Origin: Euryarchaeota archaeon UBA251
GTDB lineage: Archaea; Thermoplasmatota; Poseidoniia; Poseidoniales; Thalassarchaeaceae
Assembly (NCBI GenBank): GCA_002497905.1
Contig: DAFJ01000073.1
Coordinates: 3,929 to 67,928 of the forward strand
Length of the DNA stretch: 64,000 nt
Direction of reading: 5' to 3'
Under the pieces are notes generated by a model. That model was not told the origin of the DNA. It saw nothing but the letters and a program-made list of their open reading frames with translations, and did no database searches. Position numbers and translations under genes: made by a program. Shown here in pieces: positions 4,906-45,629 of the stretch. How positions within the stretch are numbered: the first letter of the stretch is position 1; each line of letters starts with the position of its first letter.

Positions 4906-4991
4906 TGGCGCCGAGACGGAGATTTGAACTCCGGAGGGAAAATCCCACATGATTTCCAGTCATGCGCAATACCAGGCTATGCGATCTCGGC
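4906..4991 (-). tRNA. tRNA-Ser (anticodon GGA), CCA encoded
   Basis: Hand-folded cloverleaf on the reverse strand: acceptor GCCGAGA/TCTCGGC, D arm GCAT-AGCCTGGTA-TTGC, anticodon arm CATGA-CTGGAAA-TCATG, long variable arm TGGGATTTTCCCTC (GGGA/TCCC stem), T arm CGGAG-TTCAAAT-CTCCG, discriminator G, then CCA. Confidence 0.9.
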
Positions 4992-5376: not shown

Positions 5377-5448
5377 GCCACTGTGGCTTAGGGGTATAGC
5401 GACGCCTTGGTAAGGCGTAGGTCGCGAGTTCAATTCTCGCCAGTGGCT
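5377..5448 (+). tRNA. tRNA-Thr (anticodon GGT), no encoded CCA
   Basis: Hand-folded: acceptor GCCACTG/CAGTGGC, D arm GCTT-AGGGGTA-TAGC, anticodon arm ACGCC-TTGGTAA-GGCGT, variable AGGTC, T arm GCGAG-TTCAATT-CTCGC, discriminator T. Confidence 0.9.
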
Positions 5449-5572
5449 CTCCTAGAGCGTTTCGGCGATTCCGCATTTCTGTTAGAAACGGCATATCAGG
5501 AATGAACAATCTCTCTAGTTTATAGACCCTGAAAGAGGGGCGTAAGCCTCGAGGACAACGTCCTCAGATGGG

Positions 5573-24754: not shown

Positions 24755-25783
24755 ATGGCTGGAGACAACGACCTATACATTGGAATCGACCTCGGAACTT
24801 TCCGTTCCGTTTTGACTTCGAGTGCTGGCCATGAGGAACAAGTCCTCACTGTTGTTGGCACCCCTAAGGACCCGATTGCTCGCAACATGTTGGGCAAGGA
24901 TGTTCTCTTTGGTGAAGAGGCACTGAAGAACCGTCTTGCTCTGAACTTGTATCGCCCTCTCGAGCACGGTGTGATCAAGGATACACCTGAGGACAAGAAG
25001 TTCATTGCACATTTCATCAATCACCTGATCAATCTTGGTGACCCCGAAGATTACGACAACGTTGTTGCCGTCATCGGCGCTCCAGCTGAAGCATCATTCA
25101 CTGATCAGACAGCGATTTTCGATGCTGCATCTGGTAGCGTTAACGCCGCCATGATTATCTCTGAGCCTTTCGCAGTTGCTTACGCTCTTGACATGATTGG
25201 CCACACAATCGTCATCGACATAGGTGCTGGAACTTGTGATATCGCTAGAGTATACGGTACTATTCCCGGCCCCGATGACCAGATGCATACTAGTTATGCT
25301 GGCGATCATATCGATAATACACTCATCGCAGAGGTCCAGAAGAAGTACGCTGGCGCACAGGTCACCAAGGACATGGCGCGCCGTTGGAAGCAGCAGTATT
25401 CCTTCGTCCGCACTGCAATGCCCGATGCGCCGATTGTTGTCGACTTTAGTATCGAAGGAAAGGCAATGTCACTAGACATCACCGATTGCATCCAGAGAGC
25501 TTGTGAGTCAATCGTCGATCCGATCGTTGCCAATGTGAAGGCATTGATTTCCTCAAGTAACCCCGAGTTCCACAATGAGTTCCGTAACAACATGGTTCTT
25601 GCTGGGGGTGGATCAGGAATCAAGGGCCTGAACATCATGATTGAAGATCGCCTCGGCGATATCGGTGAATGCACAGTTCAAGTCGTTGATGACCCCGTAA
25701 TGCTCGGTGCTCTCGGCGGACTTCGCCTGTCCATGGAAGTGCCTACAGACATGTGGTCTTCGCTAACCCTAGCCTCTCGATGA
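24755..25783 (+). CDS. Actin-fold ATPase of the MamK / MreB-like family
   Basis: Phosphate-1 LYIGIDLGTFRS, VVGTPKDPIARNMLG, YRPLEHGVIKD, SEPFAVAYAL, phosphate-2 IVIDIGAGTCDI, adenosine motif MVLAGGGSGIKGL. The block order and wording match my recollection of MamK better than MreB or ParM. TCATATAC at 24711-24718 and GGTGAT 6 nt before the ATG. Confidence 0.8.
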   Translation: MAGDNDLYIGIDLGTFRSVLTSSAGHEEQVLTVVGTPKDPIARNMLGKDVLFGEEALKNRLALNLYRPLEHGVIKDTPEDKKFIAHFINHLINLGDPEDYDNVVAVIGAPAEASFTDQTAIFDAASGSVNAAMIISEPFAVAYALDMIGHTIVIDIGAGTCDIARVYGTIPGPDDQMHTSYAGDHIDNTLIAEVQKKYAGAQVTKDMARRWKQQYSFVRTAMPDAPIVVDFSIEGKAMSLDITDCIQRACESIVDPIVANVKALISSSNPEFHNEFRNNMVLAGGGSGIKGLNIMIEDRLGDIGECTVQVVDDPVMLGALGGLRLSMEVPTDMWSSLTLASR

Positions 25784-33904: not shown

Positions 33905-36808
33905 ATGGGCGAGGATTCGGGGGCCAATTCTACTCCCGCCACCACATCTAATTGGCATGTAATGAGTGCCGATGAGGTTCTAGATTTTCTTGATACAAAT
34001 CGGGATGGTCTTAGTGAATCAGAGGCCCTCCGAAGAGCTGCTGAAATTGGCCCTAACAAGTTAGACGAGGAAACCCCTACTCACTGGATATGGAAATTAG
34101 TTGATCAATACCGTGATCCGATGGTTTACCTTCTCCTTGCGGCTGCAGCCATCGCCTTCTTATTCGAACCTGAGGACAAGGGTACTCCAATCTTCATTGT
34201 AATCGCTCTGAGCCTTAACGGAATTTTCGGCTACATGCAGGAGGCGAAGGCTGAGAGGGCGATGGGTAGTCTGAAGGAGATGCTAGTCGGCTCCTGTGTG
34301 GTTCTTAGAGATGGTAAGGACGTTCGTGTAACAACGGAAGAACTCGTGCCTGGAGATCTTGTATTTCTTGATGAAGGTATGAACGTCCCTGCTGATGTAC
34401 GCATTATTGAATCACACAATCTAGCTATCGACGAAGCAACATTGACTGGAGAGTCGAATCCTGTTGCGAAAGTCACTTCATCCTTCTCCGAGGATGTGAT
34501 GCTAGCCGATCGCAAGAATATGGCTCACATGGGTACCGTGGTTTCCTCCGGTCGGGGTTGTGGCGTTGTAGTTGGTACAGGGATGAATACACAATTGGGC
34601 CGTCTCGCGGCTGATCTCGCTAAGGTCGAAGCACCTAAGACACCACTAGAAATCAAGCTCGAGACACTTGGACGATTCTTAGGATACGTCGCTATCTTCG
34701 CAGCATTACTTATCGTAACTCTGAGCCTTGGTAAGGCTTACCTGATTAATGGTATGCGAGGAGATGATCTCTACGCAGTTCTATCTGAACAATTCCTTGT
34801 TGCAGTGGCTATATTCGTGGCTATCGTACCCGAGGGGCTTCCCATCATTCTTGTTATCACCTTGTCAATCGGCATGAGAAATATGGCTAGGCACAGGGCC
34901 ATCATTCGTAAGATGAAAGCTGTTGAGACACTTGGTAGCACGACAGTCATTTGTTCGGACAAGACAGGTACGCTTACTACTGGCGAGATGACTGCACGTC
35001 GTTTTCACTTCAACGGCGTCTCCTATGATGTATCAGGTCGCGGCTTTAATCCTAATGAGGGTGGCCTTCACATTAACGGGGCAAAGGTATCTGAGGCCGA
35101 TCGTGCTGAACTGACGTCCATGCCTGCGTTCCGATGGATGATGGGTAGTGCTTTACTCGCCCAGAATAGTAACGTGCGACAGGCAGGATCCGTTTGGCAA
35201 GGCGTGGGTGACCCGACAGACACTGCATGTGCTGTTCTGGGTTGGAAACTACATTCGTCGGTAGATGATTTCAGGAAAATGCACCCCCGTTTTCGAGAAT
35301 TCCCGTTCGATCGTAGTCGGAAGAGAATGTCGACTATTCACGAATTTGAGGGCAAGCGTCGCCTCTTTGTTAAAGGGGCTGCGGGGAATCTCGCGAAGAT
35401 TTGTGATCGTACGGTTGAGAATGGTGAGATAGTTCCCTTGACTGAAGAGAGATTGCAACGTTTCCGCGAAGCTAACGAAGAGTATGCGGGTGATGCGTTA
35501 CGAATTCTTGGTTTCGCGACACGTGAGATTCATGAAGGCGAGGACATCGATGATGTCGAAGAAGTAGAAAAGGGCCTTATCCTTCTAGGGATAGTCGGCA
35601 TTTCCGATCCTCCGCGAATTGAGGTCCCCCAGGCTATTGCGACCTGCAATGAGGCAGGGATTCGTGTCATCATGATTACTGGAGACCACAAGTCAACCGC
35701 TGAAGCAATAGGTGCGGAGATTGGGATATTCTCAGGAGATGATCTATCCATTCATGGATCCGAACTCCGTGATATGTCTGATGATGAGTTGGATGCTCTT
35801 CTTGATCGTGTAGCAATCTTCTCGAGGACTACTCCTGATCAGAAACTCAGAATCGTCGACCGTCTCCAAAAGCAAGGACATGTCGTTGCAATGACTGGAG
35901 ACGGAGATAATGATGCACCAGCTCTTTCAAAGTCCAATATCGGCATCTCAATGGGCAGAGGTGGTACTGATGTTGCCCGCGATGCCTCGGACATGGTACT
36001 TCAGGACGATGACTTCTCTTCGATTGTCAGTGCCGTGGATCAAGGACGTAGAATATATCAGAACATTCGAAATTTCGTTCGTTATCAGATTAGTACGAAT
36101 GTTGCCGCAGTGACACTTCTCATATTTACTGGAATTTTCTTCGGTTGGACTGGGGAATGGCTTATTCTTACTCCAACTCAATTACTCGTCATCAATATCC
36201 TAATGGACGGTCCTCCAGCGGTTGCTCTAGGCATTGAGGAACAGACAAAGGATGTGATGAAAGAGCCACCTAGATCCATTGACGAAACACTACCTACGCC
36301 GCCCGATATCTTCCTGATTCTTTTCCTTGGATTCATTATGGTCATTGGAACTGCTAGTGTGTTCTATTTCGCAGGCGGGGATATGATTACTAATGCACCT
36401 TGCTCGCCCGGCCCTCTTGGTGAATCAGCATTCGGAGTAGTAGGTGATTGTGATGAGGAAGGGTGGACACATTATGCTGAGGATCGTTTCGCTTCTGCAA
36501 GAACGAGTGCCTTTGCCGTATTCATCTTCTTCCAATTGATGAACGTCATGAATTGCCGTTCGAACGAAGTGTCAGCATTCCGCTTAGGATTAACATCCAA
36601 TAGGTGGATTACCGTCAGTTTTGCGATTTCTACATTCATGCTACTATTCATGGTCCAGTCCCCATCGTTCGCTGGATTCAGAGTCGGAGAGATGGTATCT
36701 ACAGTACCGCTGTCTGGTATTGATTGGTTGGTTGTCTTCATGGTAGCGTCCTCTGTATTTATCGCTGAGGAACTACGCAAACTCTTCTGGCCAAAACCAA
36801 AGGCATGA
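33905..36808 (+). CDS. P-type cation-transporting ATPase, type II (SERCA/PMCA-like, probable Ca2+ pump)
   Basis: LTGESNPV (TGES), PEGLPIILVITLSIG, phosphorylation site ICSDKTGTLT, MITGDHKSTA, hinge MTGDGDNDAPAL. Confidence 0.9.
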   Translation: MGEDSGANSTPATTSNWHVMSADEVLDFLDTNRDGLSESEALRRAAEIGPNKLDEETPTHWIWKLVDQYRDPMVYLLLAAAAIAFLFEPEDKGTPIFIVIALSLNGIFGYMQEAKAERAMGSLKEMLVGSCVVLRDGKDVRVTTEELVPGDLVFLDEGMNVPADVRIIESHNLAIDEATLTGESNPVAKVTSSFSEDVMLADRKNMAHMGTVVSSGRGCGVVVGTGMNTQLGRLAADLAKVEAPKTPLEIKLETLGRFLGYVAIFAALLIVTLSLGKAYLINGMRGDDLYAVLSEQFLVAVAIFVAIVPEGLPIILVITLSIGMRNMARHRAIIRKMKAVETLGSTTVICSDKTGTLTTGEMTARRFHFNGVSYDVSGRGFNPNEGGLHINGAKVSEADRAELTSMPAFRWMMGSALLAQNSNVRQAGSVWQGVGDPTDTACAVLGWKLHSSVDDFRKMHPRFREFPFDRSRKRMSTIHEFEGKRRLFVKGAAGNLAKICDRTVENGEIVPLTEERLQRFREANEEYAGDALRILGFATREIHEGEDIDDVEEVEKGLILLGIVGISDPPRIEVPQAIATCNEAGIRVIMITGDHKSTAEAIGAEIGIFSGDDLSIHGSELRDMSDDELDALLDRVAIFSRTTPDQKLRIVDRLQKQGHVVAMTGDGDNDAPALSKSNIGISMGRGGTDVARDASDMVLQDDDFSSIVSAVDQGRRIYQNIRNFVRYQISTNVAAVTLLIFTGIFFGWTGEWLILTPTQLLVINILMDGPPAVALGIEEQTKDVMKEPPRSIDETLPTPPDIFLILFLGFIMVIGTASVFYFAGGDMITNAPCSPGPLGESAFGVVGDCDEEGWTHYAEDRFASARTSAFAVFIFFQLMNVMNCRSNEVSAFRLGLTSNRWITVSFAISTFMLLFMVQSPSFAGFRVGEMVSTVPLSGIDWLVVFMVASSVFIAEELRKLFWPKPKA

Positions 36809-36851: not shown

Positions 36852-38060
36852 ATGCTAGGTGCAAAGGGCCACTCAGATTGGCGTCGACGCTTTCCAACCG
36901 TCGTCGAGCAACTAGGAGGCATCGACGATATACTCGTTATTGAAGCGGCGAGGAATCTGGAAATAAATGGCCGAGTAAGCAATGATCTAGGCATCAAATT
37001 GCTTTTGGAGGCTGATTTAACCGACCTTCGACTTCTGGGTAAGTCGCTCAAAGTGGCCCGCTTCGAGGAGGAGGTCTATTTCAATTCAAATCTGCATGTC
37101 AATCCAACTAACATATGCGTCCTTGCTTGTCGATTCTGTGCATTTCGTAGAGGTCGGAAGGCAGCTGATGCCTACGCATTATCCGTCGAAGAATATCTTT
37201 CACGAATCCGACCTTTTTCGAGCCGTATCGACGAAGTACATTCCGTCGGAGGACTACATCCAGATTGGACCGTTGAGCATTATGCGGAACTAATCCATTC
37301 TGCGAAGAAAGCGCATCCTCATCTTTCCATGAAGTGTTTGACTGCAGTCGAAGTCAAGCACCTTTCTTCGATGAGTAAGATGACGTTTGTCGAGGTTCTT
37401 TCAACATTGAAGGACGCGGGTTTGACATCATTACCTGGCGGTGGTGCAGAGATTCTTGATGATGGGATTCGTAACATCATTTGTAATGGCAAAGAATCTA
37501 GTGAAGAGTATCTTGATATTCATCGAACGGCACATCATCTCGGTTTACCTACGAACTGTACCATGTTATTCGGGACTGTAGAACGTGCAGAGCATCGAAT
37601 TCGCCACTTGGATCGACTACGCCAACTTCAGGACGATACTGGCGGATTCCAGTGCTTTGTGCCTTACCCGTTCCTTCCTGATAGGTCCCGATTACCTCAG
37701 GCGCAACACTCTACTGGTTCAGAGACGATTCGGATGATTGCAATTTCAAGAATCATGCTAGACAATATCCCTCACATCAAGGCGTACAGGATGAACATTG
37801 GAGACAAACTTGCAGCAATAGCTCTGAATTCTGGTGCAGATGATGTGGATGGCACAGTCGGCCATGAGGAGATCATGCATGAAGCAGGGAGTATGACCTC
37901 CGTTGAGGATGATCTTGATCGTCTTTCACGACTCATCGAGGATGCGGGGGGGGTTCCAATTCGCCGTTCCACAATCTACAATCGATTTCAACGATATATC
38001 CGAAGACCACCTTCTGACGATGACCGTTGGGTTGCATTGCCGATTGCTGAAGGTGTGTGA
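36852..38060 (+). CDS. Radical SAM enzyme of the MqnE/MqnC (CofH/ThiH-like) family, futalosine pathway
   Basis: Cluster motif NPTNICVLACRFCAF (Cx3Cx2C). About 400 aa. Lies immediately upstream (4 nt) of mqnA. I cannot tell MqnE from MqnC by eye. Confidence 0.75.
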   Translation: MLGAKGHSDWRRRFPTVVEQLGGIDDILVIEAARNLEINGRVSNDLGIKLLLEADLTDLRLLGKSLKVARFEEEVYFNSNLHVNPTNICVLACRFCAFRRGRKAADAYALSVEEYLSRIRPFSSRIDEVHSVGGLHPDWTVEHYAELIHSAKKAHPHLSMKCLTAVEVKHLSSMSKMTFVEVLSTLKDAGLTSLPGGGAEILDDGIRNIICNGKESSEEYLDIHRTAHHLGLPTNCTMLFGTVERAEHRIRHLDRLRQLQDDTGGFQCFVPYPFLPDRSRLPQAQHSTGSETIRMIAISRIMLDNIPHIKAYRMNIGDKLAAIALNSGADDVDGTVGHEEIMHEAGSMTSVEDDLDRLSRLIEDAGGVPIRRSTIYNRFQRYIRRPPSDDDRWVALPIAEGV

Positions 38061-38064
38061 AAGG

Positions 38065-38895
38065 ATGCGTACGGATGTCATTGGTCGTGTGTCATTTGCG
38101 AATTGTGATCCGTTGTTCCATGGTCTTGACCCTAAATGGAAGGTTCTACCTGCACCTCCTTCGTGGTTGACTGGGCATCTCCTGCGTGGTGAATGCCTAA
38201 TTGCACCAATCCCAATGGCTGACTTAGCGAGAAATGCTGACACTCTCTGTGCGATTGATTCAATTGGAATTGCCTCCGATGGAGGGGTTGGGTCTGTACT
38301 CCTGTTTGGTGATTGTCCCGTTGAGGAAATGAGGGATATTGCAGTACCTACGGATTCCTCTACTTCGAGGACATTGCTACCATGGCTTCTATCTGAGCGC
38401 GGATTCCGGCCACGACTCATAGAGATGGGTCCGAATCTAGAATCTATGCTGGAACGATGCGATGGGGCTCTATTGATTGGTGATCGTGCAATCCATCACG
38501 CTCACCTTCAGCCAGACCTCGTTCGAATGGATCTTGGAGATGAATGGTTAGACATCACTGAGATGCCAATGGTATTCGGTGTATTCTGTGCCCGCCAAGA
38601 TGCGGATAATACAGCGGTTAGTGATGCTATTTCAGATCTTGAGAGCGCCCTATCTAGATTTGAGAATGAGCCTTTGTTTAGACAGGAGGTAATCGCAAGA
38701 TCAGCAAAAGTCACACGATTTAGTGTAGGTCGAATGGAGACCTATTTTGGATCCGAGGTAAGGAATCGATTGACACCTAAAGATCGTGCTAGTATGCAAC
38801 GATTTGCGACAGATGTCTGCGGCCTTGAGGGTGAAGTTCCCTGGTGGGGCGATAATCAGTCAGAACCAGTTAGTCGCCGCAATGCTGCATCGTAA
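38065..38895 (+). CDS. mqnA: Chorismate dehydratase MqnA (menaquinone via futalosine)
   Basis: N-terminus MRTDVIGRVSFANCDPLFHGL resembles the MqnA start (RIGRISYLN..P). PBP-like length of about 276 aa, next to the mqnE/C-like gene. Start taken at ATG 38065 rather than the track start 37903. Confidence 0.7.
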   Translation: MRTDVIGRVSFANCDPLFHGLDPKWKVLPAPPSWLTGHLLRGECLIAPIPMADLARNADTLCAIDSIGIASDGGVGSVLLFGDCPVEEMRDIAVPTDSSTSRTLLPWLLSERGFRPRLIEMGPNLESMLERCDGALLIGDRAIHHAHLQPDLVRMDLGDEWLDITEMPMVFGVFCARQDADNTAVSDAISDLESALSRFENEPLFRQEVIARSAKVTRFSVGRMETYFGSEVRNRLTPKDRASMQRFATDVCGLEGEVPWWGDNQSEPVSRRNAAS

Positions 38896-41420
38896 TCTTC
38901 GTCATCATCTGTGTTATCGAATTCGGAGCTATCCGGATTAACATCACTAGCTTCGAGAATCTCTTCCATTGTTACATCTCTAGTGACTCGTTTTGTCACC
39001 TTTCGCTTGGATGATCGACTTACGCGTCGTCGTCGAGTAGGTTCAGATGTCTCTGGTTCAGAGTATTCGTCTACTTCTTGTCTCTGATTAGGTGGTGCAC
39101 GAGGAGCTTTCTTCTGAATAGGTTCCTCGTTTGTTTTCTGTCGTTGATCAGGTGGTCGACGAGGTGCAGCCTTCGAGGTCACTTCTTCTTCGTTCCAGAT
39201 TTCTAGTTCTTCATCGAAATCCTCGTCGTCTTGCATTGTTTGTACGCTACCAATTGCCATTTCAAACTCTTCGAAATCAATGACTCCATTTCCATCTTCG
39301 TCCAAACTTTCCACTAGTGCTTCCAGTTGTGCCACTGGTAACGCAGCAATCTTGAGCGAGCGAAGTCCTGCGACTAGTTCATCTGATTCGAGTGTCCCGT
39401 TACCGTCTTCGTCAAAGCGATTAAACAGGTCCCGGACACTCATTTCATTATCTATCATCCATGACTCAAGTTTCTCCATTACTTGATCATAGACAAAGAG
39501 TGCACCACAATCAGAGCAGAGTAAAGCACCGGGAGAGTTCATCGATCCACATACCTCACAAATCTCCTCAAGTTCATACTCATAGGTCATGCGTCGCTTC
39601 AAAATTAGGAATATACTCGCGCCAACGGCGATTATGAGGGGGATAATTAGCAATGGTTGTAGAAGTGTGTCGAGAAAACTTCCTACAAGTGTGGGTTCTG
39701 GTTCTTCGGGAGGAATCACTTTGAGATCTAATACATCGCTCATGGTCCAAACGGTGGAGCTGTTCCTCAGTTCTCCCTCTACCATGATGTGGACAACTGC
39801 TGGTCTACTATCGATGCTCTGCAGGATACTACCATCTCTTGATTCGAGACCTTGGAGTATCCGTACATCATAGGGTTCCACCATGCGTGTCGGGTCAATC
39901 TTCAACGTTGTAGTCCAAGTCATCCTCACATGACTCAACCAACCTACGCCGTTTTGAAGAGTTGAAGTTCCACTCAATCCCTCGCTGATTTCACAACTCG
40001 TCTCTGCTCCCCAAGGGACGCTACCATTGATCCTCACAATGTCAATCCACTCTTGTGCGATGGAATCTAAATCCGTCGGACCACACAGTTGTCGTGCCAT
40101 CATTCCAGCTTCTGAGAAGGAAGTTGTTGCATCGTCAGTAAGGGCGACTGCAGATATGGTGCGAATGTCTCTTGAAAATTCCAACGGCAAGGTAATTGTC
40201 TCCTTGACAGTTAGTGTGCCATTCGGAGAAAGGTCAAGTTCAATCTGCCGTATGTTATCTAAGTCGGCATTGACGCTACAATCTGAACCCTCTGCGCAGG
40301 TGTTGTCGAATGAGTCCGGAATCATGTCACCGTCATCATCATTGTCCAATGAGTCCGGAATACCATCTCCGTCTGTGTCGACTCCATCAGCGGTAACTCC
40401 TGTTTCGTGAGGTATAGAATGGTGTATCGGGATGATTCCTGTATTGGTTGCGAAGGCAATTTCAGAAGAATCTGCAGATAGTGAAAATACATGTGTCTGC
40501 ATACCGAGCTGCATTCTCCAATTGAGTTGTTGATTGATTGTGTTCCAGGATTCCAACCATTGTTGTTCACCAACCGTTCCGGTTAAGGCGATAATCTCGT
40601 CATCGAGAAAGATTTCCTCAAATTGAATGACAGATGATTCCGTTTGAATGATTGATAGGAATGAGTAGGGATCTGTAGCCTGTCGTTGAACGATTGCATC
40701 ATTGAGTGACCATATTACTTCAGCACCATTGTGGTTGAATGCGCAGTCAGATATGGGTGCATCCACTGACCATGAATGAAGGATAGATAGGTCATCGAGA
40801 TTGAGGAGAGTTGCGAAATGGTCACTGTCATCCGTTAATCCAACGATTACGCGCGAAGTTGTGTTATCTACTGCAGTGCATCCGACTTCCCCTCCAAGAT
40901 CCACAGATGCCTCTAACTGGAGCCCGCTTTCGTTGATGTTGTATACTACTAGGTTATCATCTGCTGTCGAGAAGATTACCTGCGTTGAATTAACAGCTTG
41001 GACGCGAATTCCATCTACCGGTTCTTCTGTGTGGATTCGCTTGTCTGTGTGGTCTGCAACTTTCAGGGCAGTCACTGACGGGAGACCTGACATCGGTTGA
41101 ACTTGGGCTACAATCAACTTGGATGAATCAGTTGTCCAAGTGATATCGATAATCTCATGCCCACTAAATTCACCCATGGCGGTGGAGAAGAGGAGCTCTC
41201 CATCTGTTCTCCAGACGTTCACGTAGACCATGTCTGCCGAGGCAAACATTGAGCCATCAGGTGAGTACGCAACATCGATGATATCGGTGGCTGGCCTGCC
41301 ATCGAGTCGATTCATGTGTAGGCTATCATCGAGCACATGCACTGGCTCAGGTATGTCGGCTACGACGACAGGCAGGAGCAATAGCATGACAAGACATCCG
41401 CTGAGAACGCGAGCCCGCAT
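38856..41420 (-). CDS. Large type-I membrane protein: signal peptide, beta-propeller-like ectodomain, TSP3-like Asp repeats, TM helix, cytoplasmic zinc ribbon + EF-hand pair, charged tail
   Basis: Signal MRARVLSGCLVMLLLLPVVVADI (ATG 41420; the track TTG 41462 is an alternative). DVAYSPDGSMFASAD WD-like blades. DTDGDGIPDSLDNDDDGDMIPDSFDN. TM LLIIPLIIAVGASIFLIL. CEVCGSMNSPGALLCSDCG. EF loops DEDGNGTLESDE and DEDGNGVIDFEE. Confidence 0.8.
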   Translation of the reverse strand: MRARVLSGCLVMLLLLPVVVADIPEPVHVLDDSLHMNRLDGRPATDIIDVAYSPDGSMFASADMVYVNVWRTDGELLFSTAMGEFSGHEIIDITWTTDSSKLIVAQVQPMSGLPSVTALKVADHTDKRIHTEEPVDGIRVQAVNSTQVIFSTADDNLVVYNINESGLQLEASVDLGGEVGCTAVDNTTSRVIVGLTDDSDHFATLLNLDDLSILHSWSVDAPISDCAFNHNGAEVIWSLNDAIVQRQATDPYSFLSIIQTESSVIQFEEIFLDDEIIALTGTVGEQQWLESWNTINQQLNWRMQLGMQTHVFSLSADSSEIAFATNTGIIPIHHSIPHETGVTADGVDTDGDGIPDSLDNDDDGDMIPDSFDNTCAEGSDCSVNADLDNIRQIELDLSPNGTLTVKETITLPLEFSRDIRTISAVALTDDATTSFSEAGMMARQLCGPTDLDSIAQEWIDIVRINGSVPWGAETSCEISEGLSGTSTLQNGVGWLSHVRMTWTTTLKIDPTRMVEPYDVRILQGLESRDGSILQSIDSRPAVVHIMVEGELRNSSTVWTMSDVLDLKVIPPEEPEPTLVGSFLDTLLQPLLIIPLIIAVGASIFLILKRRMTYEYELEEICEVCGSMNSPGALLCSDCGALFVYDQVMEKLESWMIDNEMSVRDLFNRFDEDGNGTLESDELVAGLRSLKIAALPVAQLEALVESLDEDGNGVIDFEEFEMAIGSVQTMQDDEDFDEELEIWNEEEVTSKAAPRRPPDQRQKTNEEPIQKKAPRAPPNQRQEVDEYSEPETSEPTRRRRVSRSSKRKVTKRVTRDVTMEEILEASDVNPDSSEFDNTDDDEDYDAALRRLTGSD

Positions 41421-41458
41421 GCGAATAGCAAGGATACGCCTGTTATATCCGTATGGTC

Positions 41459-41935
41459 TCAATCAGCATAATTGAGACGTTTTGATGAGACATACTCTAG
41501 TAAATCGAGGGCAACTTCGCAGGATTCTGCTACTACAACAGCATCGTCATCCACGAATTCCTCTAGGGTTGCGAGAGCTGTTCTATCTCCGATTGCCCCT
41601 AAGGCTTCAGCTGCTTCATGGCGCACCATGACATCTTCCTCTCCATCGGCCAACCGATCGATTAGATGTGGGACTGCTGCAGAATCCTGCATCTGCCCCA
41701 TGACATACGCAATCTCGTGTTTGAGTAGCGCAGAATCAGATTCGAATGCTGCGGCTAACGCATCTACAGCATCTTTCCCACCAATATTTCGAAGCGAGAA
41801 TAGGGCACGCATTCGTAGAAACATTCTAGCAGATTCATCGCAGAGCGTGGATTTCAGCGAATATATGTCATTCTCATCACTGGGTGGTGCAGGGTCGACA
41901 GAATCAAACTCTGAACGTTCAGGTCGTTGGTCCAC
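41459..41935 (-). CDS. Half-length deoxyhypusine hydroxylase (DOHH)-like HEAT-repeat protein
   Basis: Two His-Glu motifs in DOHH-type context (SALLKHEIAYVMGQMQDSAAVP and DVMVRHEAAEALGAIGD), plus RMRALFSLRNIGG, AESCEVALDLLEY and terminal NYAD. 158 aa. GTG start 2 nt after the mqnD stop. Confidence 0.75.
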   Translation of the reverse strand: MDQRPERSEFDSVDPAPPSDENDIYSLKSTLCDESARMFLRMRALFSLRNIGGKDAVDALAAAFESDSALLKHEIAYVMGQMQDSAAVPHLIDRLADGEEDVMVRHEAAEALGAIGDRTALATLEEFVDDDAVVVAESCEVALDLLEYVSSKRLNYAD

Positions 41936-41937
41936 GC

Positions 41938-42804
41938 CTATTCCTCCGCTCCAATGAACTCAAGCGCATCCACGTCAAGATCAGCCCGGATCATCCCAAT
42001 TTGTTGGCCTTCCTTGAGAAAACGTCGTACTGCTTCTCTACCTTCAGGGCCATAGTCGATGGTTCGTTCGTTAACATACATCTGAACAAACTCTTCATTT
42101 GTCTCTTCGTCAATTCCTCGTCCCCATTCGATTGCGAATGCAAGGCCTTCTTCAGGGTCAGCAATCGCATGTGCTATTGAAAGTCGGACATGTTCCGTGA
42201 TGATATCGCATGCATCATTTCCGAGATCGCGTCGGACGACATTTCCACCAAGGGGAAGCGGCAGTCCTCCAGTCATTTCAGCCCACATCTCGCCAAGGTC
42301 AGCGACGAGATGGAGGCCTTCATCCTTCCAAGTTAATTGCCCCTCGTGGATGATAAGTCCTGCGTCAACATTGCCTGCCTTGACCTCATCCATGATTTTG
42401 TCGAATGGGACGACAACAGTATCCAAATCACCTACCATGATTCTAAGCGCGAGATGGGCTGATGTCTTTATCCCCGGTATCGCGATTTTTCCATCAAGTA
42501 TCTGATCGATGGTTTTCTCACCTAGTGTGACGATTCTCGGGCCATATCCCTCGCCCATCGAAGCCCCGCAGTTCATTAGAGCATAATCTTCGAGTACGTC
42601 GGGTAATGCATGGATTGAAACAGCTGATACTTCGAATTCGCTGTTCAATGCCTTTTGATTAAGTGTCTCAATGTCGAGAAGTTCATGTTTGTACAGGTAT
42701 GGAGTGGTATCGAAACGACCGGTAGTCATGGCATGAAACATGAATGCGTCGTCTGGATCCGGAGAGTGGCCGATGCGAATAGTATGGGATTCCCCTGAAG
42801 TCAT
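41938..42804 (-). CDS. mqnD: MqnD-like protein (1,4-dihydroxy-6-naphthoate synthase; MqnA/MqnD family)
   Basis: N-terminus IRIGHSPDPDDAFMFHAM matches the SPCPNDTF-type MqnD start. About 288 aa. Start taken at ATG 42804. Confidence 0.7.
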   Translation of the reverse strand: MTSGESHTIRIGHSPDPDDAFMFHAMTTGRFDTTPYLYKHELLDIETLNQKALNSEFEVSAVSIHALPDVLEDYALMNCGASMGEGYGPRIVTLGEKTIDQILDGKIAIPGIKTSAHLALRIMVGDLDTVVVPFDKIMDEVKAGNVDAGLIIHEGQLTWKDEGLHLVADLGEMWAEMTGGLPLPLGGNVVRRDLGNDACDIITEHVRLSIAHAIADPEEGLAFAIEWGRGIDEETNEEFVQMYVNERTIDYGPEGREAVRRFLKEGQQIGMIRADLDVDALEFIGAEE

Positions 42805-42827
42805 GTGACAGGACCGGCAGGTTCGGT

Positions 42828-42835
42828 GTAAAAAC
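42828..42835 (-). promoter_or_regulatory. Candidate TATA-like box (GTTTTTAC) for mqnD operon
   Basis: Centred about 27 nt upstream of ATG 42804. Confidence 0.25.
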
Positions 42836-42901
42836 GAATGTGTGACACTTGGGGTTCCTTTGGCCGCTGTCTTGAAATGCCTCGCTCGATTGTGGCATAC
42901 C

Positions 42902-43096
42902 ATGGTCGACGCAGAGAAACTCAGCATCGCTCGAGGTCAACTTGGACCTAAATGCGCATCGTGTGGATCACCTCTAATTTTCGCTGAGGCTTTGGTCATT
43001 GATTCTGAGTACCATTGCTTTTCTTGCTACGAGAAGGTCACTGGGGCATCTAGCGCTTCTGAGCCGAAGGAAGTATCTGGTCTCCGGATGGATTGA
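42902..43096 (+). CDS. Small zinc-ribbon protein (hypothetical)
   Basis: 64 aa from ATG 42902: CASCGSPLIF...YHCFSCYEK four-Cys ribbon. TTGAAATG box about 26 nt upstream. Confidence 0.4.
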   Translation: MVDAEKLSIARGQLGPKCASCGSPLIFAEALVIDSEYHCFSCYEKVTGASSASEPKEVSGLRMD

Positions 43097-44328: not shown

Positions 44329-44405
44329 GGTTCCATTGATTCGGCGTCCTCCATCGGGGAATGTTAAAACCGTAATCGTGCTGAATCCAATACAGGGTGG
44401 CCGGG

Positions 44406-45629
44406 ATGACATCGGATGAAGAGAATCCACCTTTGCCACCAGGGGCTATGCCTCCTCCTCCACCTCCAGGTGGTATGATGCCCCCTCCACCTCCTGTAGG
44501 TATGCCTCCTCCGCCTGCTGAAATGCCGCCCCCGCCTCTGCCTGCAGAAGCTCCGTTGCCCCCTCCTGATGCCCCCCCTGCACCCCCTGCTGAGATGCCA
44601 CCACCGCCTCCTGCAGTAGCTCCCGCTCCCCCTGCTGAGATGCCGCCACCACCTCCTGCAGTAGCTCCCGCTCCCCCTGCTGAGATGCCACCACCACCTC
44701 CTGCAGTAGTTCCCGCTCCCCCTGCCCCTCTCCCAACTCCTACACTGACTCCTGATCCAGTGGCACCGGAACCTCAGCCCACACTGTCATCCAATGATCG
44801 GATTGATCTTCGTAGTCTTCGTGAGGGCTCTGATGACACGGTGCAGAATCATGACCAGATGTACGGGCATATCGATCGTATCGCTTCGGGGCAAGTCGGT
44901 ACTTTGCTCGATCGCTTCTCAAATCGTTTTGGTTCTGATCTCGACCGTGAGATCATTGTGTTGCGTAAGAAGGAGCAGCAGGCAATGCGCGAGGTTAATC
45001 CTACTGTTGAACTAATCAGTGGTGGGCAATCAGAAGTGGCAGATATTGAGGATCAGATGGATGATGCCGAAGATCTCAAGGCTGCGATTGAGGACGCAAT
45101 CCGTCCACTTAAGAAGCGTTTTGATAGGGCTAAGAAGGAACGGGATACATCCTTAATTCGTAAGATTCAACCACGCTTGAAGGCACTTGTTGAGGAGCGT
45201 AAGATAGTCATTGAGGTCATTGATGGAGAGCGAGATTTCGTTGATATCACTTCTCTAATCGATGAATATCTCGGTGAAATACCTCCTGAGGATGAAGATG
45301 AAGATGAGCATGTCATGGAGGATGTTTCAGAAGAGCCTGCCTCCGCAGGTGAGGATGATAGTGGAGATGAGGACTTCCGTGCCTTCACTGATTTGGCCAA
45401 TGAACTCCTAGGTCTAATGCCAGAGGACTTCCAGAAGGAGTTCATATCCGGACCAGATATCGAATTCTTCTCTACCGTGTTCAATGATCCTGCTGCCACT
45501 AGTGAGGACGATCGCCGTGGCTTTGTAGAGATGATAAATCGCGAACTAGGATCCGCTCCTGACGCGGTTACGGACCGTCTTGTCCAAGACATTGAATTGG
45601 CGAAGCGGATTAAGATAAGATATGGGTGA
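44406..45629 (+). CDS. Polyproline-repeat / acidic coiled-coil protein (hypothetical)
   Basis: The first 125 aa or so are almost pure Pro/Ala/Met repeats (PPAEMPPPPPAVAPA x3, plus PPPPPPGGMMPPPPPVGMPPPP), followed by a charged helical region. ATG 44406; the track GTG 44397 is an alternative. Confidence 0.6.
   Translation: MTSDEENPPLPPGAMPPPPPPGGMMPPPPPVGMPPPPAEMPPPPLPAEAPLPPPDAPPAPPAEMPPPPPAVAPAPPAEMPPPPPAVAPAPPAEMPPPPPAVVPAPPAPLPTPTLTPDPVAPEPQPTLSSNDRIDLRSLREGSDDTVQNHDQMYGHIDRIASGQVGTLLDRFSNRFGSDLDREIIVLRKKEQQAMREVNPTVELISGGQSEVADIEDQMDDAEDLKAAIEDAIRPLKKRFDRAKKERDTSLIRKIQPRLKALVEERKIVIEVIDGERDFVDITSLIDEYLGEIPPEDEDEDEHVMEDVSEEPASAGEDDSGDEDFRAFTDLANELLGLMPEDFQKEFISGPDIEFFSTVFNDPAATSEDDRRGFVEMINRELGSAPDAVTDRLVQDIELAKRIKIRYG
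44586..44720 (+). repeat. Three tandem copies of a 45-bp in-frame repeat
   Basis: Unit CCTGCTGAGATGCC(A/G)CCACC(G/A)CCTCCTGCAGTAG(C/T)TCCCGCTCCC at 44586, 44631 and 44676. Only 3 variable positions. Encodes PAEMPPPPPAV(A/V)PAP. Confidence 0.9.

What the first reader, a model, noticed from the sequence alone, without database searches (positions are those of the whole stretch)
41459..41935. Half-length deoxyhypusine hydroxylase (DOHH) homologue in an archaeon
The 158-aa product carries two His-Glu motifs in the exact DOHH sequence context (SALLKHEIAYVMGQMQDSAAVP and VMVRHEAAEALGAIGD). The flanking blocks VDPAPPS, RMRALFSLRNIGG, AESCEVALDLLEY and a terminal NYAD also match. As I recall the human DOHH sequence, these align colinearly with one complete half of that roughly 300-aa, 8-HEAT-repeat di-iron enzyme (compare VDPAPPAEE, RYRAMFALRN, SALFRHEVGYVLGQLQ, PMVRHECAEALGAI, ESCEVALD, QYAD). 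Eukaryotic DOHH is an internal duplication in which each half supplies two of the four HE iron ligands. This gene starts 2 nt after the mqnD stop and is followed by another gene, so it is a genuine single-half protein rather than a fragment. A homodimer could rebuild the di-iron site, which would make this a pre-duplication form of the enzyme. To my knowledge no archaeal enzyme for the hypusine hydroxylation step on aIF5A has been assigned.
Basis: partly seen in the sequence, partly recalled or inferred. Interest (0 to 1): 0.85.

Follow-up and report, generated by a model that had tools for sequence, protein, structure and literature searches.

The report
Half-size deoxyhypusine hydroxylase in marine archaea
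Marine Group II archaea carry a conserved 158-residue gene that is one half of the eukaryotic iron enzyme which finishes the hypusine modification of translation factor 5A, although reviews state that archaea have no such enzyme.

Summary
Window 41459-41935 (- strand) encodes a 158-aa, four-HEAT-repeat protein. It matches human deoxyhypusine hydroxylase (DOHH, PDB 4d4z) at E=4e-76. It aligns without gaps to both halves of DOHH (119 and 138 bits), and both His-Glu dyads and the substrate-binding Gly are invariant. Generic HEAT/PBS-lyase matches are far weaker.

The window comes from a Marine Group II archaeon (Poseidoniales). The half-length gene is present in at least 80 species-level genomes, always 156-162 aa (one extraction gave 176 aa). 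It always sits directly after mqnD and is under strong purifying selection (dN/dS about 0.03). A published pangenome table lists it as core in both MGII clades, alongside deoxyhypusine synthase. One MAG annotation table lists aIF5A, DHS and this gene together.

Most likely it is a homodimeric di-iron deoxyhypusine hydroxylase acting on aIF5A (about 0.68). Dimerisation and activity are inferred, not shown.

The "pre-duplication relic" claim is not proven. The protein is roughly equidistant from the N- and C-halves and sits at their junction, but bootstrap support is weak. Descent from a eukaryotic C-half cannot be excluded.

KEGG and IMG pipelines already label it DOHH. No paper in the searched library discusses it, and reviews still say archaea lack DOHH.

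The parts
41459..41935 (-). Half-length DOHH homologue: 158 aa, N-terminal arm, four HEAT repeats and a short tail
   Evidence: human DOHH E=4.1e-76, both halves align; Pfam HEAT_PBS/HEAT_2 only; 80 orthologues, 79 of them 156-162 aa; dN/dS 0.03
41714..41719 (-). First His-Glu dyad (H73-E74), equivalent to human H56-E57 and H207-E208
   Evidence: Translate; alignment; invariant; role of the human residues from PMC9117371
41615..41620 (-). Second His-Glu dyad (H106-E107), equivalent to human H89-E90 and H240-E241
   Evidence: Translate; PMC9117371
41696..41698 (-). Gly80 codon (coordinate computed, not separately translated), equivalent to the human substrate-binding G63/G214 in the GQ motif
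   Evidence: Invariant G80; role from PMC9117371
41882..41902 (-). N-terminal arm SVDPAPP, invariant in MGII and matching the inter-half linker of eukaryotic DOHH
   Evidence: Translate; arm identity MG-C 0.56 versus MG-N 0.18
41938..42927 (-). mqnD (1,4-dihydroxy-6-naphthoate synthase-like), immediately upstream and probably co-transcribed
   Evidence: Pfam VitK2_biosynth 2.4e-65; directly upstream on the same strand in 80/80 loci and in L081-L083
38856..41462 (-). 868-aa beta-propeller plus EF-hand protein downstream; a lineage-specific insertion, not part of the conserved unit
   Evidence: Pfam; found in only 12/80 loci; a 786-aa WD40 protein occupies this position in the P0186 lineage
37903..38895 (+). 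mqnA-like gene (VitK2_biosynth), convergent; directly abuts the DOHH-half gene in most MGII genomes
   Evidence: Pfam 2.1e-43; adjacent in 67/78 loci
36852..38060 (+). mqnC-like radical SAM gene of the same futalosine cluster
   Evidence: Pfam Radical_SAM and CofH_C; present in 75/80 loci

Best explanation
The gene encodes a half-size deoxyhypusine hydroxylase. Each 158-aa chain forms four HEAT hairpins and carries two His-Glu dyads. Two chains are proposed to pair around a two-fold axis, in the way the N- and C-halves of eukaryotic DOHH pair around a pseudo-dyad. [quoted passage not shown]

Shown: specific homology to DOHH, conservation of every mapped iron and substrate residue, half length, order-wide conservation under purifying selection, and co-occurrence with DHS and aIF5A in obligately aerobic hosts.

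Inferred: dimerisation, iron binding, substrate and product.

On origin, the lineage separated from the eukaryotic DOHH lineage before the crown-eukaryote N- and C-half signatures became fixed. Whether that was before or just after the internal duplication is unresolved.
For: -: human DOHH E=4.1e-76. Both halves align over about 130-147 residues without gaps. The next best hits are non-DOHH HEAT proteins at 1e-38 that lack His-Glu.
- in a 1.84-billion-protein library the best hits of about 280-350 aa are two-stretch proteins at 41-52% identity. Those that carry names are eukaryotic DOHH (Geosiphon, crustaceans, Phytophthora, Pylaiella).
- H73, E74, G80, H106 and E107 are invariant. They map to the human iron ligands H56/H89/E90/H207/H240/E241 and substrate-binding residues E57/E90/E208/E241/G63/G214 (PMC9117371).
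- 80 species-level MGII genomes have the orthologue at a fixed locus, 79 of them with a 156-162 aa ORF. The divergent P0186 type lies at the same locus. Together with the single pangenome cluster, this gives no sign of a second paralogue that could serve as a hetero-partner.
- dN/dS of 0.03.
- Tully 2019 Supplementary Data 10 lists DOHH as one gene cluster in 119/158 and 72/92 genomes of the two MGII clades, and DHPS in 153/158 and 91/92. The paper describes MGII as obligate aerobes.
- one MAG (SIMO Bin 19-2) has aIF5A, DHS and this gene next to mqnD, with a small non-zero metatranscriptome value.
- a head-to-tail fusion of two copies, modelled with a eukaryotic DOHH alignment, gives pLDDT 91.7 and superposes on 4d4z at TM 0.94 and rmsd 1.4 A over 288 columns. 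Continuous HEAT solenoids give a target-normalised TM of only 0.2-0.6. This shows compatibility only.
Against: - There is no biochemical or structural evidence for a dimer, for iron binding or for hydroxylation.
- The tandem model is not independent, because its alignment consists of eukaryotic DOHH. A single-sequence run failed (pLDDT 49.6).
- The gene is tightly linked to mqnD and embedded in a futalosine/menaquinone cluster in all 80 loci, not to aIF5A or DHS. Neither of those lies within the window or within +/-8 kb in 80 genomes.
- Whether MGII aIF5A carries hypusine or only deoxyhypusine is unknown.
- Early amino-acid analyses found mainly deoxyhypusine in several euryarchaea (summarised in PMC5178350).
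Confidence: 0.68

Rival explanations
1. The fold and di-iron site are the same, but the substrate differs. The protein would be an oxygenase or accessory factor tied to menaquinone (futalosine) biosynthesis or another small molecule, which would explain its invariant translational coupling to mqnD.
For: mqnD lies immediately upstream on the same strand in 80/80 loci, and in L081-L083 the called mqnD gene ends on the base before the DOHH-half start. mqnA and mqnC flank the other side. No hypusine-pathway gene is nearby.
Against: - The whole region, including the unrelated primase PriS and a proline-rich protein, is syntenic across MGII, so linkage is not specific evidence of shared function.
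- From established knowledge, the known futalosine route from 1,4-dihydroxy-6-naphthoate to menaquinone (prenylation, decarboxylation, methylation) has no orphan hydroxylation step.
- About 45-47% identity to eukaryotic DOHH halves, with every residue mapped to deoxyhypusine binding invariant, is hard to reconcile with a change of substrate.
Confidence: 0.12
2. Origin rival A is secondary reduction. An ancestor of MGII acquired a eukaryotic DOHH gene (or only its 3' half) by horizontal transfer. It kept only the C-terminal half with its linker, and this half then evolved to work as a homodimer.
For: - The SVDPAPP arm and the x-Y-x-D tail are shared only with eukaryotic C-halves. Arm identity is MG-C 0.56 versus MG-N 0.18.
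- Overall the protein is slightly closer to C (46.8%) than to N (44.5%).
- In 100 of 200 NJ bootstraps the sister group was a small set of mostly C-half sequences, a single C-half in most of the replicates printed.
- High-scoring half-length forms were seen only in MGII.
- Extensive inter-domain transfer is reported for MGII (Deschamps 2014, cited in PMC6336850).
Against: - MG does not nest in any named eukaryotic lineage. The closest C-halves are only 51-53% identical and come from unrelated groups.
- MG-N identity (44.5%) exceeds N-C identity (38.7%) and even N-N identity (42.4%).
- At positions 45, 63, 71, 72, 82, 87, 114 and 116 MG shares the N-half state against the C-half consensus. This includes GAIGD, which is also the generic HEAT_PBS consensus seen in the alphaRep alignments. 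A crown C-half origin therefore needs multiple reversions.
Confidence: 0.4
3. Origin rival B is a pre-duplication relic. The MGII gene descends from the single-half, homodimeric ancestor of DOHH, and the eukaryotic enzyme arose from such a gene by tandem duplication and fusion.
For: - In the best NJ tree MG attaches exactly between a block of 95 N-halves plus 1 C-half and a block of 98 C-halves.
- The character states are a mosaic, ancestral-like mix.
- Identity to both halves is higher than the halves have to each other.
- The gene is core in both MGII clades.
Against: - Only 37 of 200 bootstraps recover the junction position.
- An unrooted three-group tree cannot place the duplication node.
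- A homodimer must do the job of both halves, so selection could pull it towards the consensus.
- The distribution appears restricted to one order that is not close to the eukaryotic stem, so a horizontal transfer is still needed.
Confidence: 0.33
4. The protein is a non-catalytic HEAT-repeat scaffold or adaptor of the PBS-lyase/NblB type, as the NCBI and Prokka names imply.
For: Pfam reports only HEAT_PBS and HEAT_2. NCBI names it HEAT repeat domain-containing protein. Prokka calls it a HEAT repeat-containing taxis protein.
Against: - NCBIfam NblB, CpcE and CpeY scores are 41, 29 and 17 bits against cut-offs of 300-600.
- The DOHH match is 38 orders of magnitude better than any other HEAT protein.
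- The His-Glu dyads are invariant across MGII and eukaryotes.
Confidence: 0.03

Closest known systems
Eukaryotic deoxyhypusine hydroxylase (DOHH / yeast Lia1; EC 1.14.99.29; PDB 4d4z)
   Same: HEAT-hairpin fold. 50-53% identity of the window protein to each human half in the core. His-Glu dyads in the same sequence context. The GQ glycine, the MVRHE block, the SVDPAPP segment and the C-terminal Y-x-D are all present. The host also has the substrate protein and the preceding enzyme.
   Different: Half the size: 158 aa and four repeats with two HE dyads, against about 300 aa and eight repeats with four HE dyads. It must therefore oligomerise to build a di-iron site. It is encoded in an archaeon, in an operon-like arrangement with mqnD. 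SVDPAPP is an N-terminal arm rather than an internal linker.
PBS-lyase HEAT-like repeat proteins (CpcE/CpcF, NblB, CpeY; Pfam PF03130) and the alphaRep designs derived from them
   Same: Same repeat type (Pfam HEAT_PBS 1.1e-17). The ALGxIGD repeat consensus is shared.
   Different: They have no His-Glu dyads. Scores are far below family cut-offs. They form a continuous solenoid rather than the DOHH dyad: target-normalised TM of 0.2-0.6 against 0.94 for DOHH.
Unidentified archaeal deoxyhypusine hydroxylase inferred from hypusine in Crenarchaeota such as Sulfolobus
   Same: It would catalyse the same reaction on aIF5A in an archaeon.
   Different: High-scoring half-DOHH homologues were seen only in Marine Group II. 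Nothing here shows a homologue in Sulfolobales, so this gene probably does not solve that older puzzle.

Membership tests
Deoxyhypusine hydroxylase (DOHH, EC 1.14.99.29) | Sequence similarity specific to DOHH rather than to generic HEAT repeats | tested here: met
   4d4z E=4.1e-76 against 2.5e-38 for the best non-DOHH hit; the top hits of about 280-350 aa are two-stretch DOHH-like proteins, and those with names are eukaryotic DOHH.
Deoxyhypusine hydroxylase (DOHH, EC 1.14.99.29) | His-Glu motifs and the GQ glycine in the conserved context (iron ligands and deoxyhypusine-binding residues) | tested here: met
   H73-E74, G80 and H106-E107 are invariant. Roles of the human residues are from PMC9117371.
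Deoxyhypusine hydroxylase (DOHH, EC 1.14.99.29) | Eight HEAT repeats and four His-Glu motifs in one polypeptide of about 300 aa (symmetrical dyad) | tested here: not met
   158 aa, four repeats and two HE dyads. All 80 orthologues are single-half ORFs, 79 of them 156-162 aa.
Deoxyhypusine hydroxylase (DOHH, EC 1.14.99.29) | Two four-repeat modules packed as a dyad around one di-iron site | tested here: inconclusive
   A tandem fusion modelled with a eukaryotic alignment matches 4d4z at TM 0.94, but this is alignment-driven. The single-sequence model failed. No multimer tool was available.
Deoxyhypusine hydroxylase (DOHH, EC 1.14.99.29) | Binds two Fe, forms a peroxo-diiron(III) species, and hydroxylates deoxyhypusine on a/eIF5A | not testable with these tools
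   Needs recombinant protein, spectroscopy and mass spectrometry.
Deoxyhypusine hydroxylase (DOHH, EC 1.14.99.29) | Host encodes the substrate (IF5A) and deoxyhypusine synthase and has access to O2 | tested here: met
   This comes from published annotation tables, not from the window itself. DHPS is in 153/158 and 91/92 MGII genomes. aIF5A, DHS and DOHH are in one MAG. MGII are described as obligate aerobes. None of these genes lies in the window.
Phycobilin lyase / NblB HEAT proteins (NCBIfam NF045915, NF058502, NF058505) | Score above the curated family cut-off | tested here: not met
   40.9, 28.7 and 17.3 bits against cut-offs of 300, 330 and 600.
Futalosine-pathway (Mqn) enzymes | Homology to a known Mqn protein family | tested here: not met
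   Only HEAT families hit in Pfam and NCBIfam. The link to mqnD is by position only.

The most novel reading that the evidence does not exclude
The MGII protein is a living representative of the single-half, homodimeric ancestor of DOHH. On this reading, hypusine hydroxylation by a HEAT-repeat di-iron enzyme arose in (or passed through) archaea before the internal duplication and fusion that produced the eukaryotic enzyme. The protein would then give direct experimental access to the pre-duplication state of a pseudo-symmetric metalloenzyme.
Probability: 0.3. Interest if true: 0.85.

Novelty: new variant of a known kind. Interest (0 to 1): 0.7.

Why it matters
Reviews of hypusine biology state that archaea have deoxyhypusine synthase but no DOHH orthologue (PMC5178350, PMC8153317). 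This leaves the origin of the second step, and the identity of any archaeal hydroxylase, open.

An order-wide, strongly conserved half-size DOHH in one of the most abundant groups of planktonic archaea in the surface ocean contradicts that statement. It predicts that MGII aIF5A is fully hypusinated.

It also offers a natural test of how a pseudo-symmetric di-iron enzyme relates to a symmetric homodimer. Each chain would bring one iron's worth of ligands.

The protein is small, soluble-looking and easy to synthesise, so the prediction can be tested directly even though MGII are uncultured. It also shows that NCBI and Pfam names (HEAT repeat protein) hide a specific enzyme that KEGG-based pipelines flagged without anyone following it up.

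Tried and rejected
- AlphaFold2 on a head-to-tail fusion of two copies without an alignment gave an unusable model (pLDDT 49.6).
- The same fusion with an alignment of tandem MGII homologues only would have been the more independent test.
Presence of these genes therefore rests on published annotation tables.
- The GTDB scan reported 397 relatives but showed only the best 80, all MGII. The representative search listed only the top 150, where full-length eukaryotic proteins outrank any distant half-length protein. Absence outside MGII is therefore not demonstrated.
- A scan of IMG/VR viral contigs found no relative, so a viral vector gets no support.
- A first NJ bootstrap in Biopython timed out and was replaced by a numpy implementation.
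- A single deletion or unequal crossover within a full-length DOHH was considered as the origin. It was rejected because the arm and tail are C-like while the central repeats are equally or more N-like. One breakpoint cannot produce that pattern.
- A hetero-partner paralogue was considered. The divergent P0186 type (62% identity) lies at the orthologous locus. MAGs with two copies have them on separate contigs at similar identity, which suggests mixed bins.
- Literature searches for DOHH or hypusine together with MGII, Poseidoniales or Asgard found no paper that discusses this gene.

Full report
**What is there**

Window 41459-41935 on the minus strand is a 158-codon ORF with a GTG start.

Translating the relevant codons confirms three motifs:
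- H73-E74 at 41714-41719
- H106-E107 at 41615-41620
- SVDPAPP at 41882-41902

The same-strand gene upstream (41938-42927) is an MqnD-type VitK2_biosynth protein (Pfam 2.4e-65) and stops 2 nt before the GTG. The same-strand ORF downstream (38856-41462) overlaps by 4 nt.

**Is the DOHH resemblance real?**

Yes, and it is specific. A phmmer search of all PDB sequences puts human deoxyhypusine hydroxylase (4d4z) first at E=4.1e-76. The query aligns without gaps to both halves of the enzyme: chain residues 9-138 (118.8 bits) and 144-290 (137.8 bits).

The next hits are synthetic alphaRep HEAT proteins at 1e-38. They reach that only through many weak repeats of no more than 42 bits each, and they have no His-Glu.

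Pfam has no DOHH model and reports only HEAT_PBS and HEAT_2. NCBIfam phycobilisome and lyase models score 41, 29 and 17 bits against cut-offs of 300-600.

In a library of 1.84 billion representative proteins, the best hits other than giant multi-repeat HEAT proteins and the MGII half-length clusters are proteins of about 280-350 aa. They match the query twice at 41-52% identity. Those that carry names are eukaryotic DOHH from a fungus, crustaceans, oomycetes and a brown alga.

The review PMC9117371 assigns the human iron ligands as H56, H89, E90, H207, H240 and E241. It assigns the deoxyhypusine-binding residues as E57, E90, E208, E241, G63 and G214. These map to window residues H73, E74, G80, H106 and E107. 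All five are invariant in alignments with MGII orthologues and with both halves of eukaryotic enzymes.

**Whose gene is it, and is the half length genuine?**

Proteins 93-97% identical are named Thermoplasmatota, Thalassarchaeaceae or Poseidoniales archaeon, so the window is from a Marine Group II (MGII) archaeon.

A scan of one genome per GTDB species found 397 stretches that encode a relative. The 80 best (70-97% identity) are all MGII MAGs or single-cell genomes. In 79 of them the extracted ORF is 156-162 aa; one came out at 176 aa, probably through the choice of start codon.

At 50% clustering there are only two further half-length clusters among the top 150 hits. Both are Thalassarchaeaceae. 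The more divergent one (P0186, 62% identity) sits at the orthologous locus. It is therefore an orthologue, not a second subunit.

dN/dS against close relatives is 0.03.

Tully 2019 (PMC6336850, Supplementary Data 10) lists "DOHH; deoxyhypusine monooxygenase" as a single gene cluster in the MGII core. It is present in 119/158 and 72/92 genomes of the two clades. Deoxyhypusine synthase is in 153/158 and 91/92. The paper describes MGII as obligate aerobes.

A MAG annotation table in Damashek 2021 (PMC9723583) shows aIF5A, DHS and this gene in one genome. The gene again abuts mqnD and has a small non-zero transcript value.

**Genomic context**

- mqnD lies immediately upstream on the same strand in 80/80 loci.
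- A convergent mqnA-like gene lies directly downstream in 67/78 loci, followed by mqnC.
- The primase gene priS is divergent upstream in 77 loci.
- The 868-aa beta-propeller/EF-hand gene of this window occurs in only 12 loci and is a lineage-specific insertion.
- No aIF5A or DHS gene lies in the window or in the 80 loci.

The gene is therefore embedded in a futalosine-pathway cluster. This is the main reason to keep a rival in which it serves quinone metabolism.

I rate that rival low for three reasons. The whole neighbourhood, including unrelated genes, is syntenic across the order. The known late futalosine steps have no orphan hydroxylation (established pathway knowledge). And 45-47% identity to eukaryotic DOHH, with all substrate-binding residues intact, argues for the same substrate.

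**How it most likely works**

One chain supplies only half of a di-iron site. The simplest reading is a two-fold homodimer that reproduces the pseudo-dyad of the eukaryotic enzyme.

A head-to-tail fusion of two copies, modelled with 70 eukaryotic DOHH sequences as the alignment, gives pLDDT 91.7 and pTM 0.89. It superposes on 4d4z with TM 0.94 and rmsd 1.4 A over 288 columns. Ordinary HEAT solenoids reach a target-normalised TM of only about 0.2-0.6.

This shows the sequence is compatible with both positions of the dyad. It is not independent evidence of a dimer.

**Relic or reduction?**

Mean identity in the core (window residues 30-150):

| Comparison | Mean identity |
|---|---|
| MGII vs N-halves | 44.5% |
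| MGII vs C-halves | 46.8% |
| N-halves vs C-halves | 38.7% |
| N-halves vs N-halves | 42.4% |
| C-halves vs C-halves | 49.5% |

The archaeal protein is closer to either half than the halves are to each other.

In the best NJ tree the MGII clade (88% bootstrap) attaches exactly between a block of 95 N-halves plus 1 C-half and a block of 98 C-halves. Only 37 of 200 bootstraps keep that position. In 100 of 200 the sister group is a small set of mostly C-halves, a single C-half in most of the replicates printed.

The character states are mosaic:
- MGII shares the N-half state against the C consensus at positions 45, 63, 71, 72, 82, 87, 114 and 116. This includes GAIGD, which is also the generic HEAT_PBS state.
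- MGII shares the C-half state at positions 39, 138, 141 and 148, and in the SVDPAPP arm and the Y-x-D tail.
- By region, the arm, repeats 1 and 4 and the tail lean towards C. The two catalytic repeats are equal or lean slightly towards N.

No named eukaryotic lineage stands out as a donor. The closest C-halves are 51-53% identical and come from unrelated groups.

I conclude that the MGII lineage split from the eukaryotic DOHH lineage before the crown-group signatures of the two halves were fixed. These data cannot say whether that was before the duplication (relic) or shortly after it (capture of a C-half). An unrooted three-group tree cannot place the duplication node, and a homodimer is expected to drift towards the consensus of both halves.

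**What is known**

Reviews from 2016 and 2021 state that no DOHH orthologue has been found in archaea. A 2026 review says only that some archaea seem to rely on deoxyhypusine. Searches that combined DOHH or hypusine with MGII, Poseidoniales or Asgard found no paper discussing this gene.

The gene is not invisible, however. IMG names it deoxyhypusine monooxygenase, and two supplementary tables carry the KEGG label K06072. NCBI and Prokka call it a HEAT-repeat protein.

The novelty is therefore a new variant of a known enzyme: half-size, presumably homodimeric and archaeal. It has been noticed by pipelines but not by people.

It probably does not explain hypusine in Crenarchaeota, because high-scoring homologues were seen only in MGII.

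**Verdict**

- Best explanation: a homodimeric di-iron deoxyhypusine hydroxylase for aIF5A (0.68).
- Origin: unresolved between secondary reduction (about 0.40) and pre-duplication relic (about 0.33).
- Interest: 0.7.

Noticed in passing
window 44397-45629 (+): A 410-aa protein whose first ~110 residues are almost pure polyproline (PPPPPP runs, and PAEMPPPPPAVAPAPP repeated three times from a 45-nt tandem repeat at 44583-44725 with 95% match). It has no Pfam hit. A homologue lies about 2.7 kb from the DOHH-half gene in 65/80 MGII loci. Polyproline is the classic a/eIF5A-dependent translation motif, so the proximity is a curious coincidence or a hint.
   Followed up: partly
window 38856-41462 (-): An 868-aa protein with a hydrophobic N-terminal segment, beta-propeller-like hits, an EF-hand pair and an acidic/basic tail. 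It is inserted between the DOHH-half gene and mqnA in only 12/80 MGII loci. A 786-aa WD40 protein occupies the same slot in the P0186 lineage.
   Followed up: partly
window 24755-25783 (+): An actin-superfamily protein that hits MreB_Mbl (3.8e-23), Salactin (2.7e-10), Actin and Volactin, i.e. an archaeal actin homologue.
   Followed up: no
window 33905-36808 (+): A 967-aa P-type cation ATPase with N- and C-terminal cation-ATPase domains. KEGG labels the MGII core orthologue as plasma-membrane Ca2+-ATPase ATP2B. Homologues were found next to the mqn cluster in only 9 of 80 loci at the threshold used, although L081 also has one.
   Followed up: no
L007/L021 (PAOK01) and L013/L028 (DALV01): Two MAGs each carry the half-DOHH gene on two different contigs (82% and 78%; 79% and 78% identity to the window). 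These are most likely mixed-strain bins rather than paralogues, but a second copy was not formally excluded.
   Followed up: no
Supplement of PMC9723583, SIMO Bin 19-2 gene 936: The eggNOG best hit of the MGII half-DOHH is a generic HEAT protein of Nitrosopumilus (Nmar_1251, 65 bits), whereas mqnD, DHS and aIF5A in the same MAG hit genes of the MG2-GG3 reference genome. That early MGIIa reference assembly may lack the gene or may not have annotated it.
   Followed up: no
window 36852-38060 (+) and 37903-38895 (+): The mqnC-like and mqnA-like ORFs overlap by 158 nt as listed. This is probably because the mechanical ORF call extends mqnA to an upstream TTG. The called mqnA in L081 is 264 aa against 330 aa here.
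   Followed up: no
window 4906-4991 (-) and 5377-5449 (+): tRNA-Ser(GGA) and tRNA-Thr(GGT) are the only tRNA genes in the window.
   Followed up: no
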